The position numbers and the translations under genes were made by a program. This document shows, in pieces, positions 1-5,010 of a DNA stretch of 53,884 bases (position 1 is the stretch's first letter; every line of letters starts with the position of its first letter). Source of the stretch: Acidobacteriota bacterium (GTDB lineage: Bacteria; Acidobacteriota; Blastocatellia; RBC074). Location of the stretch: contig JAKEHZ010000041.1 of NCBI GenBank assembly GCA_022614735.1, positions 1 to 53,884 on the forward strand, written 5' to 3'. The notes beneath the pieces were generated by a model. It was not told the origin of the DNA. It was given only the letters and a program-made list of their open reading frames with translations, and did no database searches.

Positions 1-209
1 GGGACGAATGCAGCGTTGCTTTTCAAACGATACGAAAAGTGAAGTAGAAGAGAGAATGCGAGGCAACAAGAATTGGCGAAAATAGACGAAACAAGCGAAA
101 ATGGGCACCTTTCGCTTGTTTCGTCTATTTTCGCCAATTCTTGTTGCCTCGCATTCTCTCTTCTACTTCACTTTTCGTATCGTTTGAAAAGCAACGCTGC
201 ATTCGTCCC
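1..209. repeat. Perfect 100-bp inverted repeat (arms 1-100 and 110-209, 9-nt loop ATGGGCACC) that reaches the window edge. The outer ~41 bp of each arm are the fabF 3' coding end and its mirror image.
   Basis: The reverse complement of 1-100 equals 110-209 base for base. The + strand 1-42 reads GTNAALLFKRYEK-stop, identical to the fabF C-terminus encoded on the - strand at 168-209. The inner arm has ~9-nt units (GGCGAAAAT/AGACGAAAC/AAGCGAAAA). Confidence 0.9.
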
Positions 210-1418
210 ACCAAACCCAAAACTATTGGACAACGCGTAACGAATACTCGCCGCGCGCGGCTGGTTCGGTACGAAATCAAGATCGCATTCCGGGTCCGGG
301 GTTTCGTAATTGATCGTCGGCGGCAGCATCTGATGATAGACAGTAAGCGTGGTGACTCCCGCTTCGAGCCCGCCAGCGCCGCCCAGCAAGTGTCCGGTCA
401 TTGATTTGGTCGAGCTGGCTGCGAGTTCATAAGCGTGATTGCCGAAGGCAGATTTGATCGCATTGGTTTCGTTAACATCACCGACCGGAGTCGATGTCCC
501 GTGAACGTTGATGTAATCCACCTCGTTCGGGTCAATTCCTGCATCTTTCATCGTTTTAAGCATAACACGGCGAGGGCCATCCAGATCCGGCATAGTAATA
601 TGGAAAGCATCGCTGGTCATTCCGTAGCCTACGACTTCGGCATAAATCCTGGCGCCCCGCGTCATTGCATGCTCGTGTTCTTCGAGGACCAAAATCCCCG
701 CCCCTTCACCAATGACGAAGCCATCACGGCCTTTGTCAAATGGGCGTGAGGCACTCGGCGGGTCCTCGTTGCGTGTCGAAAGTGCGTGCATTGCCGCAAA
801 TCCGCCAATCGACATCGGTGTAATAGCGCCTTCAGTTCCGCCACAGATCATCGCCGTAGCGTCGCCGCGCTGGATGATTTTGAAACTGTCACCCAGGGCG
901 TGCGCGCCGGAACTGCAAGCCGTCGCAGTGGCGGAGTTCGGCCCTTTCGCTCCGCTGTAGATCGAGACGTAACCTGAGGCGAGGTTGATAATCGATGCCG
1001 GGATGAAGAAGGGTGAGATGCGTCCCGGCCCACCTTCCAACATCTTCGAGTGCTCACGTTCGAAGACGCTGAAACCGCCAATGCCGCTGCCGATGAAAAC
1101 TCCGACCCCTTCCGCGTTCTCCTGAGTGATTTTCAATCCGGAATCAGCGAGCGCCTCTTTCGCAGCCGCGATAGCAAAGTAGATGAAATAGTCCATCTTC
1201 TTGAGTTCTTTCTTCTCGACAAATTTGAGCGGCTCGAATCCCTTGGTTTCAGCAGCGAAACGAACTTTATGTTGGCTGGTGTCGAAGCGCGTGATGTAAT
1301 CCACACCGCTGTGGCCGGCAATCAAACCAGACCATGTCTCCTCGGTTGTGTTGCCGAGCGGGCTGACCAGGCCGATACCGGTGACTACCACTCGCCTCTT
1401 GATTATCTGGTTGTTCAC
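168..1418 (-). CDS. fabF: Beta-ketoacyl-ACP synthase II (KAS II)
   Basis: KRRVVVTGIG N-terminus, active-site Cys in ATACSSGAHA, HGTSTPVGD and GHLLGGAG motifs. The ORF track starts at TTG 1445. I prefer GTG 1418, which is preceded by GAGGAAG. Confidence 0.93.
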   Translation of the reverse strand: MNNQIIKRRVVVTGIGLVSPLGNTTEETWSGLIAGHSGVDYITRFDTSQHKVRFAAETKGFEPLKFVEKKELKKMDYFIYFAIAAAKEALADSGLKITQENAEGVGVFIGSGIGGFSVFEREHSKMLEGGPGRISPFFIPASIINLASGYVSIYSGAKGPNSATATACSSGAHALGDSFKIIQRGDATAMICGGTEGAITPMSIGGFAAMHALSTRNEDPPSASRPFDKGRDGFVIGEGAGILVLEEHEHAMTRGARIYAEVVGYGMTSDAFHITMPDLDGPRRVMLKTMKDAGIDPNEVDYINVHGTSTPVGDVNETNAIKSAFGNHAYELAASSTKSMTGHLLGGAGGLEAGVTTLTVYHQMLPPTINYETPDPECDLDFVPNQPRAASIRYALSNSFGFGGTNAALLFKRYEK

Positions 1419-1438
1419 GAATTTCTTCCTCTTCTGAG

Positions 1439-1461
1439 ATCTCAAATTTGAAATTTGAGAT
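1439..1461. promoter_or_regulatory. 11-bp perfect palindrome ATCTCAAATTT-G-AAATTTGAGAT just upstream of fabF
   Basis: Read directly from the sequence. It lies in the acpP-fabF spacer, 21 nt upstream of the preferred fabF start. Its function (operator or small hairpin) is unknown. Confidence 0.4.
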
Positions 1462-1496
1462 ATGAGATAACGCCACTCCCTGTAGTAGAAACTGAA

Positions 1497-1578
1497 TCAG
1501 CCACAAAAAGACACGAGCGATACAAAAGTAATCCGAAGTTCAATCAGCTTTTGTATATTTAGTGCCTCTTGTGGCTCA
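1497..1578. repeat. Degenerate (~75% complementary) inverted repeat 3' of acpP, possibly a decayed member of the hairpin class
   Basis: TCAGCCACAAAAAGACACGAGCGATACAAAAG pairs with CTTTTGTATATTTAGTGCCTCTTGTGGCTCA. It lies ~30 nt downstream of the acpP stop. Confidence 0.55.
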
Positions 1579-1609
1579 TTCTTTCGCGCGGGCGATGAGA
1601 CTTTAGCGC

Positions 1610-1849
1610 CTATTTTTTGTGCTCATCGATGTAGGCGATGGCATCGCGCACGCTCTGAATCTTTTCGGCCTCTTCGTCAGGGATCTCGATCCCGAACTCC
1701 TCCTCAAAGCGCATTACCAGTTCGACCGTGTCGAGCGAATCTGCTCCGAGATCGTCGATGAAACGCGCATTCGGGGTTACTTCCGATTCATCCACCCCAA
1801 GCTCATCTACAATTATCTGTTTAACCTTATCTTCGATTGATTCTGCCAT
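1610..1849 (-). CDS. acpP: Acyl carrier protein
   Basis: [12 protein letters not shown] phosphopantetheine-attachment motif. ATG at 1849 is preceded by GGAGGAAC. The track ORF begins at an upstream TTG (1861). Confidence 0.95.
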
Positions 1850-1863
1850 GAGTTCCTCCAAAA

Positions 1864-1981
1864 GTGATTGCGGACTTATGATTGCGGATTGCGGATTGCG
1901 GATTGCGGATTGATTGCGGGAAACTTCTCTTCAAATCCGCAATCCGCAATCCGCAATCCGCAATCATTAGTCCGCGATCAC
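1864..1981. repeat. Family A hairpin: (GATTGCG)n heptamer arms with a GTGATYGCGGACTWATG outer stem
   Basis: Arms ~1864-1911 and 1933-1981 have 2 mismatches. The element fills the whole fabG-acpP spacer, and the right arm contains the fabG stop codon (1978-1980). Confidence 0.9.
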
Positions 1982-2721
1982 ATATACATACCACCGTTTA
2001 CATTTATTACCTGGCCCGTAATATAGCCTGCCTCATCTGAGGCGAGAAATGCAACCGCATAGGCTATGTCAAGATCTGTCCCTGGACGTTTCAACGGGAT
2101 CTGCTCGAGCATTGCATTGCGTGCCGTTTCGTTCAAAGCCGACGTCATCGGTGTCTCGATGAAACCCGGAGCAATGGCATTGACCGTGATGTTGCGCGAA
2201 GCGTATTCGCGCGCGACTGCTTTTGTGAATCCGATGATGCCCGCTTTTGCCGAGATGTAATTCACCTGGCCGACATTGCCTGACTGGGCGACGACCGAAG
2301 TCAGATTAATAATGCGGCCGCGACGGGCTTTGGTCATCATCGGCAATACCTGCTGGGTCAGCAGGAAAACCCCCGTCAGATTGGTATTGATCACATCAGA
2401 CCAATCCTCTCGCTTCATGCGTAACATCAATCCATCGCGCGTAATGGCTGCGTTGTTGACCAGGATACTAACCGCACCGAGCTCAGATGAGACCTTTTCA
2501 ACGGCGGCCTTGATCTCATCAGCATTGGCCAGATCGCCACGTACCGCCACCGCGCGACGACCCCCTGCTCGTATTTCATCAGCAACGGCTTCACATTTAT
2601 CCAGCGAACGAGCCATCACTGCGACATCGGCGCCAAACTCGGATAAGACCTTAGCCGTGGCCCGACCGATACCTCGCGAGCCGCCGGTCACCAGCGCGAT
2701 TTGTCCTTTAAGATTAAACAT
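1978..2721 (-). CDS. fabG: 3-oxoacyl-ACP reductase (SDR)
   Basis: TGGSRGIG cofactor motif, NYISAKAG (YxxxK), position in the fab cluster. Confidence 0.93.
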   Translation of the reverse strand: MFNLKGQIALVTGGSRGIGRATAKVLSEFGADVAVMARSLDKCEAVADEIRAGGRRAVAVRGDLANADEIKAAVEKVSSELGAVSILVNNAAITRDGLMLRMKREDWSDVINTNLTGVFLLTQQVLPMMTKARRGRIINLTSVVAQSGNVGQVNYISAKAGIIGFTKAVAREYASRNITVNAIAPGFIETPMTSALNETARNAMLEQIPLKRPGTDLDIAYAVAFLASDEAGYITGQVINVNGGMYM

Positions 2722-2725
2722 ATTT

Positions 2726-2829
2726 GATTGCGGACTACTGATTGCGGATTGCGGACTGCGGATTGCGGATTTAATAGGAACTTCCTTCTAAATCCGCAAT
2801 CCGCAATCCGCAATCCGCAATCCGCAATC
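2726..2829. repeat. Family A hairpin (imperfect) between fabD and fabG
   Basis: Left arm 2726-2772 is GATTGCGGACTACTGATTGCGG(ATTGCGG/ACTGCGG)n. Right arm 2790-2829 is AAATCCGC(AATCCGC)n. The fabD reading frame runs through the right arm and loop. Confidence 0.9.
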
Positions 2830-3715
2830 CCACGTCCTTCCCTGATTCTCTGGCGATTGCCTTGACCAGACCGGTCAACACTTTACCCGGACCAACTTCA
2901 ACAAAAGTATCAACGCCCTGGTCGAGCATATACATGACGCTTTCGGCCCAACGCACTGGCGCAGAAATCTGGCGAATGAGTGCTCCGCGGGCTTGCGCGC
3001 CGGCAGTCACGAACTCCGCATCTACGTTGTTAATAATAGGGAATGAGAGATCATTGAAAGTCGTTGCTTCAAGTAATTCTGCCATTTTCTCCTGCACCGG
3101 CAACATCAAAGCCGAATGGAATGGCGCGCTGACTTTGAGCATTATCACACGCTTTGCGCCTCGCGTTTTGCATTCCTCAACTGCGCGTTCGACAGCTTCC
3201 TTATGCCCGGCGATAACAATCTGTGTCTGCGAATTGAAATTGGCCGGTGCACAAATTTGATCTCGAGCAGCAGCGGCGCAAGCTTCGGAAACTCTGCTGG
3301 CATCAATTCCCAGGACCGCAGCCATGGCGCCGGTGCCAAGAGGCACAGCCTCCTGCATCAATTCGCCTCGGCGACGTACCAGGCGGACCGCATCGCTCAA
3401 ACTCAGAGCCCCGGCGGCGACCAGTGCAGAGTACTCACCCAAACTATGGCCGGCAACGAAATCAGGGTTAATGCCTCTTTCAGACAGCAAGCGATAAGCT
3501 GCAACCGATACAGCCAGGATAGCTGGTTGCGTACTGGCAGTGAGTTGTAGAGTCTCTTCCGGGCCATTGAAGCAGAGGCTGCTCAAACTAAAGCCAAGCG
3601 CACGATCCGCTTCGTCAAAAACTGCGTGAGCGGCTGGAAATGCCTGGGCCAGCTCTCGCCCCATACCGGCGTGTTGTGAACCCTGACCGGGGAAGATGAA
3701 TGCGGTTTTACCCAT
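2771..3715 (-). CDS. fabD: Malonyl-CoA:ACP transacylase; the last ~19 codons are encoded by the family A repeat
   Basis: GHSLGEYSAL active site, GQGSQ, GPGKVLTGL. The C-terminal [19 protein letters not shown] is translated from AATCCGC repeats. Confidence 0.92.
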   Translation of the reverse strand: MGKTAFIFPGQGSQHAGMGRELAQAFPAAHAVFDEADRALGFSLSSLCFNGPEETLQLTASTQPAILAVSVAAYRLLSERGINPDFVAGHSLGEYSALVAAGALSLSDAVRLVRRRGELMQEAVPLGTGAMAAVLGIDASRVSEACAAAARDQICAPANFNSQTQIVIAGHKEAVERAVEECKTRGAKRVIMLKVSAPFHSALMLPVQEKMAELLEATTFNDLSFPIINNVDAEFVTAGAQARGALIRQISAPVRWAESVMYMLDQGVDTFVEVGPGKVLTGLVKAIARESGKDVGLRIADCGLRIADLEGSSY

Positions 3716-3721
3716 AGACTA

Positions 3722-4747
3722 TCAACTGATCACCGCCATCCGACCGAGTTCGCTCTCGATACGTTCGCTCAATTTGCCTTTGTAAAACTCTTTGGCGACG
3801 CGGATAGCGTTCCGGATCGCTTTAGCGTTAGAGCTGCCGTGGCATATCACGCAGATCTGCTTGCAACCCAGCAGCGGCGCGCCGCCGAACTCCGAATAAT
3901 CAAGGCGCTTTTTGACGCTGCGGAATGCATTAAGCGATAGCATCGCTCCGATCTGCGTCAGGATTGTCTGCCCGAGCTCAGTCTTGAGCAGACCCATAAT
4001 CGCTTCAACCAGGCCCTCGCTCGTTTTCAAGATGACATTGCCTGTGAAGCCATCAGAGACTATCACGTCGACATCGCCGGTGAAGATGTCGCGCCCTTCG
4101 ACATTGCCGATAAAGTTAATGGGCGCCGCCTTCATGAGATTCAGAGTCTCTCTGGTCAATTCGTTCCCTTTGACATCCTCTTCGCCGATGCTCATCAAGC
4201 CGACATTTGGGTTGCGCACGCCGAGGATCGATCGCGAGTAGATTGAACCCATAATCGCGAACTGTTTGAGATGCTCGGGCTTGCATTCGGCATTTGCCCC
4301 GACATCGAGCAGAACAGTGCCAACTCCTTTGAGCGTGGGGAAGATGCCTGCGAGAGCCGGTCGGTCGACCGAGGGAAGAGTGCCAAGCATGAGTTTGGCC
4401 GTCGCCATGACGGCGCCCGTATTGCCCGCGCTCACCAGACCGTGCGCCTTTCCTTCGCGTACCAGTCTGGCTGCCACACGAATTGAGGAATCTCGTTTAC
4501 GACGCACAGCTTGCGCCACCGGATCATCCATAGTGATGATTTCTCTCGCATCGATGATTTCGATATGGAGGCGTTGTTTGCGTGGATTGGGCACGCCTTG
4601 ATGTTCCAACTCAGCGCGAATGCGTTCTTCCTGCCCGACAAGAAGAATGCGTGCGCGCAGATCGTGTGCAGCCTGAATGGCGCCTTCAACCTCGATGGCG
4701 GGGGCATTATCCCCACCCATTGCATCAACTGCAATTGTGGTGAGCAT
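3722..4747 (-). CDS. plsX: Phosphate acyltransferase
   Basis: Full-length PlsX-like sequence ([15 protein letters not shown]). It sits between rpmF and fabD. Confidence 0.92.
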
Positions 4748-4752
4748 TGGAC

Positions 4753-4817
4753 AAGGATGAAGGATGAGGGATGAGGGATGGTGGTGGGATGTGCCACAAG
4801 ATCATATCCTCATCCCC
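4753..4817. repeat. Heptamer tract (AAGGATG AAGGATG AGGGATG AGGGATG GTGGTGG) with a short complementary partner ATCCTCATCCCC
   Basis: Tandem 7-mers at 4753-4787 lie 6 nt upstream of the plsX start. The partial partner is at 4806-4817 in the rpmF-plsX spacer. Confidence 0.7.
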
Positions 4818-4830
4818 GAATTTGATGAGC

Positions 4831-5010
4831 TTATAGCCCTTTTTCAATCACTATGCGCCCGTGATAAAAACCGCAGGACACGCAAACACGATGTGGAAGT
4901 TTCATCGAGCCGCAATTCGGGCAGGCAATCAGGTTGACGCGCTTAAGCGCGTCATGTGATCGCCGCTTTCGGCTGCGCGATTTTGAATGACGTCTTTTAG
5001 GATTTGGCAT
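4831..5010 (-). CDS. rpmF: 50S ribosomal protein L32
   Basis: [19 protein letters not shown]... with a CPNCG...CVSCG zinc ribbon. ATG 5010 is preceded by GGGAG. The longer track ORF (to 5142) is read-through of the hairpin. Confidence 0.93.

What the first reader, a model, noticed from the sequence alone, without database searches (positions are those of the whole stretch)
1..209. 100-bp perfect palindrome at the window edge that mirrors the fabF 3' coding end
Seen directly: 1-100 is the exact reverse complement of 110-209. The inner ~58 bp per arm (42-100 and 110-167) look like the other 3' hairpins, with GCGAAA ~9-nt units. The outer 41-42 bp are the last 13 codons and stop of fabF (168-209), copied in mirror image at 1-42. 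As a result the + strand also ends an ORF with GTNAALLFKRYEK-stop.

The palindrome is still perfect at position 1, so its true extent is unknown. Three explanations are possible:
- a convergent, very recent inverted duplication of fabF
- palindrome growth that swallowed coding sequence
- a fold-back chimera at a contig end
Basis: seen in the sequence. Interest (0 to 1): 0.6.

Follow-up and report, generated by a model that had tools for sequence, protein, structure and literature searches.

The report
Fold-back assembly artefact at contig end
The 100-base mirror image at the start of this contig is real in the file but almost certainly not in the cell: the assembler ran round a genuine 119-base hairpin behind the fabF gene and back into fabF, so the mirrored gene end is an artefact.

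Summary
In detail: window 1-100 is the exact reverse complement of 110-209. The window is a whole contig (C274) of a 354-contig metagenome bin, so position 1 is a contig end.

- **Real part:** only 46-164 is natural. It is a 119-nt hairpin (55-nt arms, 9-nt loop) from a ~40-copy repeat family.
- **Mirrored part:** bases 1-45 copy the 3-nt spacer, stop and last 13 fabF codons.
- **Assembler signature:** contig ends share exactly 101-mers (K=101). Three contig ends carry fold-backs with arms of exactly K-1 = 100, the mark of a weak graph edge "disconnected" by a metagenome assembler.
- **True neighbour:** another contig end (C342) carries the same copy-specific loop and arm, then a different flank with a convergent VWA gene. 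That join is collinear over ~10.9 kb with a same-genus genome.
- **No recent duplicate:** the only other KAS gene is a 43% paralogue.
- **Second assembly:** a second public assembly of the same population shows the same fold-back traversed the other way, but a normal VWA-side junction.

Read mapping was closed. The source of the few fold-back k-mers (chimeric library molecules or a rare loop-flip variant) is therefore unresolved.

Verdict: artefact, low interest.

The parts
1..45 (.). Mirror copy of 165-209 (3-nt spacer, fabF stop and last 13 codons, read on the opposite strand). Judged to be an assembly fold-back and not genomic sequence at this place.
   Evidence: Exact reverse complement of 165-209. 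C342 and its counterparts L009/L010 show a different sequence (X flank) left of position 46. Arm = K-1 = 100.
46..100 (.). Left arm (55 nt) of the genuine hairpin repeat element.
   Evidence: Shared 100% with C342:31-85 (reverse complement). Its 40-mers occur only in C274 and C342. Member of a ~40-locus family.
101..109 (.). Loop ATGGGCACC, not self-complementary and specific to this copy.
   Evidence: Loop plus 6 nt on each side occurs only in C274 and, as reverse complement, in C342. Other family copies have different loops.
110..164 (.). Right arm (55 nt) of the genuine hairpin element.
   Evidence: Exact complement of 46-100. C342 and C274 diverge at 165. MFE of 42-168 is -105.5 kcal/mol with RNA parameters.
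165..167 (-). 3-nt spacer between the element and the fabF stop codon.
   Evidence: Read directly from the sequence.
168..1418 (-). fabF (beta-ketoacyl-ACP synthase II), 416 aa from a GTG start behind a GAGGA ribosome-binding site. This is the real and only copy.
   Evidence: ORF. The identical 416-aa product is called in a second assembly with PF00109/PF02801. It is 81-85% identical to same-family genomes. The only other KAS in the genome is 43% identical.

Best explanation
Bases 1-45 are an assembly artefact.

The real locus is: VWA-domain gene (contig C342, reading towards the element), 15 nt, a 119-nt perfect hairpin element (55-nt arms, 9-nt loop), 3 nt, then the fabF stop with fabF reading towards the element from the other side. 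The two genes are convergent.

In the K=101 de Bruijn graph, true k-mers spanning the whole hairpin on the VWA side are missing. C342 dead-ends 21 nt past the loop. A small number of k-mers exist in which the fabF flank is attached to the element with the loop in the opposite orientation. These k-mers form a path that leaves the fabF contig, goes round the loop and re-enters the same contig on the other strand, which makes a 'lollipop' in the graph.

The assembler treated the low-coverage end of that path as a weak edge. It disconnected the edge by deleting its first (K+1)-mer and merged the rest with the fabF contig. The contig therefore starts exactly one base short of its own 101-mer, giving arms of K-1 = 100.

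Shown here: the anatomy, K=101, the recurrence of the K-1 arm, the alternative flank and the synteny.

Inferred: the weak-edge step, because the assembler's identity is not known. Also inferred is the origin of the flipped-junction k-mers. Most likely they come from fold-back chimeric library molecules formed at the inverted repeat during fragmentation and end repair.
For: 1. The window is a whole contig of a 354-contig, 73.5%-complete bin, so position 1 is a contig end.
2. 82 of 708 terminal 101-mers are shared with another contig end and no terminal 102-mer is shared, so K=101 (29 dovetail pairs of exactly 101 nt).
3. Three contig ends (C274 L, C335 L, C46 R) have terminal palindromes with arms of exactly 100. 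The next longest terminal arm is 52, and internal perfect arms stop at 96. Six other ends show K-1 overlaps with other contigs. The metaSPAdes paper describes disconnecting a weak edge by removing only its first k-mer when coverage is more than 10-fold below the vertex (PMC5411777).
4. C342:1-85 is the reverse complement of window 46-130 at 100%, including the loop orientation, and then diverges at 45/165. That loop and outer arm are unique to these two contigs.
5. C342's first gene is a VWA protein whose stop faces the element. In same-genus G001, fabF and the best homologue of that VWA gene (66% identity) are adjacent and convergent, 87 nt apart. The proposed join is collinear with G001 over ~10.9 kb.
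6. C46's hairpin likewise has an alternative flank on C341.
7. In a second assembly of the same population (GCA_973348325.1), the VWA-side contig again reads X-arm-loop-arm(11) (L009). A Logan contig reads X-arm(30) (L010). The counterparts of C335 and C46 stop in or at the hairpin without mirroring the flank.
8. There is no recent fabF duplicate. The only other KAS is 43% identical.
9. Chimeric reads joining a strand to its inverted complement at natural inverted repeats are a documented library-preparation artefact (PMC10908179).
Against: The low coverage of the fold-back junction is therefore inferred from the K-1 signature and was not measured.

The assembler is unknown, and K=101 is not a default setting of the common assemblers.

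The second assembly also contains the fold-back at this hairpin: L008:4210-4425 equals window 1-216, an arm of 107. The flipped-junction k-mers are thus reproducible and not a one-off. They could reflect real molecules, such as a rare loop-flip variant or in vivo fold-backs.

This genome does hold natural perfect hairpins with arms up to 96 nt. A natural arm of 100 nt or more would therefore not be absurd in itself.
Confidence: 0.88

Rival explanations
1. Loop flip-flop. The hairpin element exists in the population in both loop orientations, for example through recombination or template switching between the 55-nt arms. The minor flipped variant supplies genuine k-mers that join the fabF flank to the flipped loop. 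The assembler then mis-pairs entry and exit of the 119-nt core, which is longer than K. The mirrored fabF end would still be a mis-join, but its cause would be a real polymorphism.
For: Relative to the real gene flank, the loop is in opposite orientations in the two assemblies at two hairpins: fabF (window versus L008) and C335 versus L011. All 101-mers of window 1-209 would exist under this model, because the 119-nt core is longer than K.
Against: The VWA-side contigs read the same loop orientation in both assemblies with no branch at the arm/loop boundary, whereas a flip should affect both sides equally. A lollipop traversed in either direction explains the opposite orientations without any flip. 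Three hairpins that are internal in both assemblies keep their loop orientation (window 1864-1981 and 2726-2830; C335:2858-3016).
Confidence: 0.07
2. Real inverted duplication or palindrome growth. The hairpin's arms have truly extended into fabF, so the genome, or a sizeable subpopulation, carries a mirror copy of the fabF 3' end (100 nt or more per arm). A K=101 graph cannot traverse this, so the contig stops at K-1.
For: The genome has 131 perfect inverted repeats with arms of 50 nt or more, reaching 96 nt. The mirror extends to at least 107 nt in a second assembly. A graph assembler would truncate any longer arm near K.
Against: The same element copy, with its copy-specific loop and outer arm, abuts a different flank in three assemblies, and that flank is the syntenic neighbour of fabF. 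No contig carries long sequence on both sides of the loop. No contig holds a junction between a mirrored fabF tail and anything else. C274 runs unbroken for 53.9 kb, with no branch where a duplication would end. An arm of K-1 instead of K points to a link more than 10-fold weaker than the contig. There is no near-identical second fabF, although a collapsed duplicate would not be visible.
Confidence: 0.03
3. Covalently closed hairpin telomere. The contig end is the end of a linear replicon, and reads turn round the closed end to produce the mirror.
For: Sequencing through a closed hairpin end gives exactly this kind of fold-back at a contig end (established knowledge of Borrelia and N15-type telomeres, not tested here).
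Against: The turn-round point is an ordinary member of a ~40-copy intergenic repeat family. A continuing flank exists (C342). In G001 the homologous site lies 410 kb inside a 1.64-Mb contig, with collinear genes on both sides.
Confidence: 0.005

Closest known systems
Fold-back ('lollipop') contig ends in de Bruijn-graph metagenome assemblies, with weak-edge disconnection as described for metaSPAdes (PMC5411777)
   Same: It lies at a contig end. The arm is tied to K (K-1 = 100 with K = 101). It recurs at three ends of the same assembly. Other contig ends show the same K-1 overlaps.
   Different: The assembler used is not known, and K=101 is not a default. The low coverage of the weak end was not measured.
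Chimeric artefact reads formed at natural inverted repeats during library preparation (PDSM model, PMC10908179)
   Same: One part of the sequence is the original strand and the rest is its inverted complement, with the turn at a natural, near-perfect inverted repeat. The structure of window 1-209 is of this form.
   Different: That work concerns human capture libraries and short inverted repeats. Here the repeat has 55-nt perfect arms, and the artefact is seen only after assembly, because no reads were available.
REP/BIME/REPIN-type intergenic palindromic repeats (for the genuine 46-164 element)
   Same: It is multi-copy (~40 loci), intergenic, lies between convergent gene ends and is strongly hairpin-forming.
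   Different: It is much longer (119 nt, perfect 55-nt arms built from ~9-nt GCGAAA-type words). No RAYT-type transposase link was tested here. The family is the subject of other reports on this genome.

Membership tests
De Bruijn-graph fold-back contig-end artefact | The palindrome touches a contig end | tested here: met
   The window is C274:1-53884, the whole contig, and the arm starts at base 1.
De Bruijn-graph fold-back contig-end artefact | Arm length is tied to the assembly k-mer size and recurs at unrelated contig ends | tested here: met
   K=101 from shared terminal 101-mers. Arms are exactly 100 at C274 L, C335 L and C46 R, and the next longest is 52. There are six further K-1 overlaps.
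De Bruijn-graph fold-back contig-end artefact | A different, genuine flank exists for the same hairpin copy | tested here: met
   C342:1-85 is the reverse complement of window 46-130 and then diverges. The loop and arm are copy-specific. The same junction appears in L009 and L010. The join is collinear with G001.
De Bruijn-graph fold-back contig-end artefact | The fold-back junction has little or no read support compared with the true junction | not testable with these tools
The known run (SRR16971103) dates from before 2026, and such runs are held only as k=31 contigs, which cannot span 55-nt arms.
Recent inverted duplication of fabF | A second, near-identical fabF copy or coding-length mirror | tested here: not met
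   The only other KAS gene is C255:3707-4951 at 43% identity. No other contig holds the fabF tail. Caveat: identical duplicates collapse in graph assemblies.
Recent inverted duplication of fabF | The element's other side is the mirror copy and not unrelated sequence | tested here: not met
   In three assemblies the other side is the VWA-gene flank.
Covalently closed hairpin telomere | The site is the physical end of a replicon | tested here: not met
   Genes are collinear on both sides in G001, 410 kb inside a 1.64-Mb contig.
REP/REPIN-like palindromic repeat family (element 46-164) | Many dispersed intergenic copies that form hairpins | tested here: met
   About 40 loci in the genome at 74-100% identity. 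MFE is -105.5 kcal/mol. The element sits between convergent stops.
REP/REPIN-like palindromic repeat family (element 46-164) | Association with a RAYT (IS200/IS605-like) transposase | not tested
   Outside the scope of this finding.

The most novel reading that the evidence does not exclude
The fold-back k-mers come from real molecules in the cells. Either the loops of these very long perfect hairpins invert (flip-flop) at measurable frequency, or the hairpins provoke in vivo template switching that makes fold-back (inverted-dimer) DNA. In that case the contig-end mirrors would be a footprint of palindrome-driven genome instability in a soil Blastocatellia bacterium.
Probability: 0.08. Interest if true: 0.45.

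Novelty: not a real feature. Interest (0 to 1): 0.08.

Why it matters
As biology it does not matter. There is no second fabF end, no convergent duplicate and no coding sequence swallowed by a palindrome.

It matters in practice for three reasons:
- Two public assemblies of this organism carry spurious mirrored sequence at contig ends, which can produce phantom partial ORFs. Here that is a 13-codon 'GTNAALLFKRYEK' end on the plus strand.
- The K-1 arm is a simple diagnostic that can clear similar findings elsewhere in the scan. C335 L and C46 R are the same artefact.
- The contigs C342 and C274 can be joined with confidence.

The genuine 119-nt hairpin belongs to an unusual repeat family that is treated in other reports.

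Tried and rejected
**Read mapping.** The one run identified indirectly (SRR16971103) dates from before 2026, and such runs are held only as k=31 Logan contigs, which cannot span 55-nt arms.

**Exact-pattern scans.** Scans of metagenome contigs and genome contigs for the fabF-tail/element junction found nothing.

**K of the second assembly.** I tried to infer it from four contig ends (arm 107; a stop at the loop; stops 11 and 31 nt past the loop). No single K explains them, so that assembly's fold-back is used only as evidence that the flipped-junction k-mers recur.

**Purely algorithmic origin.** I considered low-k ambiguity carried forward into the final graph. It cannot be shown: at K=101 the 45 fold-back 101-mers must come from some sequence input, either reads or locally assembled pseudo-reads.

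**Terminator scan.** The consensus scan found no intrinsic-terminator match at the element, which has a 9-nt loop and no T-run.

**Recent duplication.** Rejected after the whole-genome protein search.

**Hairpin telomere.** Rejected on synteny.

Full report
**Observation.** The sequence is as described. Window 1-100 is the exact reverse complement of 110-209, with a 9-nt non-palindromic loop ATGGGCACC between them. fabF lies on the minus strand. Its stop is at 168-170 and its last residues are GTNAALLFKRYEK. The window is an entire contig (C274, 53,884 nt) of a 354-contig, 73.5%-complete assembly, so base 1 is a contig end. Earlier notes of this scan call the organism a soil Blastocatellia acidobacterium. 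I did not test that.

**What is natural and what is not.** The inner part belongs to a repeat family with about 40 loci in the genome, and at least nine of those sit at contig ends.

- The left end of contig C342 (1-85) is the reverse complement of window 46-130 at 100% identity, including the loop orientation. It then diverges from the window exactly at 45/165.
- The loop with its neighbouring bases, and the 40-mers of the outer arm, occur nowhere else in the genome. Other family copies all have different loops.
- C342's end and the window's element are therefore the same physical copy. It has two exits: fabF, and C342's flank (called X below).
- The natural hairpin is thus 46-164, with 55-nt perfect arms and an MFE of -105.5 kcal/mol for 42-168.
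- Bases 1-45 are a mirror of the 3-nt spacer, the stop codon and the last 13 codons of fabF.

**The true neighbour.**

- C342's first gene is a VWA-domain protein whose stop codon lies 15 nt from the element and faces it.
- In the near-complete same-genus genome G001, fabF (C4:408837-410090, +) is followed 87 nt later by a convergent gene (C4:410177-411208, -). That gene is the best homologue found anywhere of the C342 protein, at 66% identity against 60% or less for all others.
- A model joining RC(window 46-5000) to C342:86-6000 is collinear with G001 C4:406000-417000 over about 10.9 kb. The order is several fab-cluster genes, fabF, the VWA gene, then three more genes.
- G001 also has a hairpin between the two stops, but of unrelated sequence.
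- The only other KAS gene in the genome is a 43%-identical paralogue (C255).

**Why the arm is exactly 100.**

- Of the 708 contig ends, 82 share their terminal 101-mer with another contig end, and none shares a terminal 102-mer. Dovetail overlaps spike at exactly 101 nt, with 29 pairs. The final graph therefore had K=101.
- Three contig ends (C274 L, C335 L and C46 R) carry terminal palindromes with arms of exactly 100. The next longest terminal arm is 52.
- Among 131 perfect inverted repeats with arms of 50 nt or more, the internal ones reach only 96.
- Nine terminal 100-mers recur without their 101-mer. Three are these self fold-backs. The other six are K-1 overlaps with other contigs.
- This is what "disconnection" of a weak edge produces. 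metaSPAdes removes only the first k-mer of an edge whose coverage is more than 10-fold below that of its vertex (PMC5411777). What is left begins one base inside the vertex it came from.
- Applied here, a low-coverage path left the 101-mer [0-100], which is the reverse complement of the contig's own 110-210. It went round the loop and rejoined the true sequence. It was cut at its weak end and then fused with the fabF contig.
- C46's hairpin also has an alternative flank, on C341, which defines a natural arm of 73 nt and 27 mirrored bases.
- C335's mirror includes the start codon and first codons of the adjacent gene.

**A second assembly.** GCA_973348325.1 holds the same population. Over 4.4 kb of the fab cluster it differs from the window only by one synonymous fabF SNP, one heptamer-unit indel plus a SNP in another hairpin, and the loop.

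- Its fabF contig also folds back. L008:4210-4425 equals window 1-216 exactly, so the long fabF side lies on the other side of the same loop and the mirror is 107 nt long. This is the same lollipop traversed in the other direction. No contig in either assembly has long sequence on both sides.
- Its VWA-side contig reads X, arm, loop, then 11 nt of the second arm, with no fold-back (L009). A Logan contig from SRR16971103 reads X then 30 nt of the arm (L010).
- Its counterparts of C335 and C46 stop 31 nt past the loop, with a flipped loop, and exactly at the loop. Neither mirrors the flank.
- The k-mers that attach the fabF flank to a flipped loop are therefore reproducible input and not a one-off assembler accident.

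**Where the fold-back k-mers come from.**

- At K=101 the 45 fold-back 101-mers cannot arise from the true locus, so something supplied them.
- The best candidate is chimeric library molecules formed at inverted repeats during fragmentation and end repair. These join a strand to its own inverted complement (PMC10908179). Such molecules automatically give both loop orientations next to the same flank.
- A rare natural loop-flip variant would also supply them. Three results argue against it. The VWA-side contigs show one loop orientation with no branch in both assemblies. The opposite loop orientations are explained by the lollipop alone. Three hairpins that are internal in both assemblies keep their orientation.

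**Rivals.**

- A fixed inverted duplication or grown palindrome is contradicted by several results. The X-arm junction appears in three assemblies. No contig holds a junction between a mirrored fabF tail and anything else. The 53.9-kb contig is unbroken. The K-1 arm is a weak-edge signature.
- A hairpin telomere is excluded by synteny.

**Verdict.** The palindrome is real in the file and its inner 119 nt are a real element. The mirrored fabF end is an assembly artefact. C342 and C274 should be joined across the element. Confidence is about 0.88. Interest is low.

Noticed in passing
G000 contigs C335:1-209 and C46:10563-10765: The same artefact occurs at two other contig ends, with terminal palindromes whose arms are exactly 100 nt. 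C335 mirrors the start codon and first codons of a small gene starting at C335:192. C46 mirrors the last codons of a 402-aa membrane protein gene. C46's natural arm is 73 nt, defined by the alternative flank at the C341 right end.
   Followed up: yes
whole genome G000: The 4.4-Mb genome holds 131 perfect inverted repeats with arms of 50 nt or more and loops of 80 nt or less, with internal arms up to 96 nt. The scan found 68 terminal palindromes (arms 19 nt or more) at the 708 contig ends. These hairpins appear to be a main cause of the assembly's fragmentation.
   Followed up: partly
window 2795-2809: Between the two assemblies of the same population, the heptamer-repeat hairpin after fabD differs by one 7-nt unit (GGATTGC-type) plus one SNP. 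This is microsatellite-like length variation inside a hairpin arm.
   Followed up: no
L007 (G001:C4:409700-410600), locus 391-478: The same-genus relative also has a hairpin between the convergent fabF and VWA stops, but it is built from unrelated AATTGATAATT-type words. The position is conserved and the sequence is not.
   Followed up: no
family copies listed (e.g. C26:15465, C88:1492, C182:16205, C254:3791): Copies that share the same inner arm (GAAACAAGCGAAA...) each have a different 9-12-nt loop. Many look like variants of a near-palindromic ATGGGCCCAT-type centre.
   Followed up: no
window 1419-1445: The longest fabF ORF starts at a TTG (1445). A GTG at 1418 preceded by GAGGA is the likelier start, and the 416-aa product from it is the one called in the second assembly.
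   Followed up: partly
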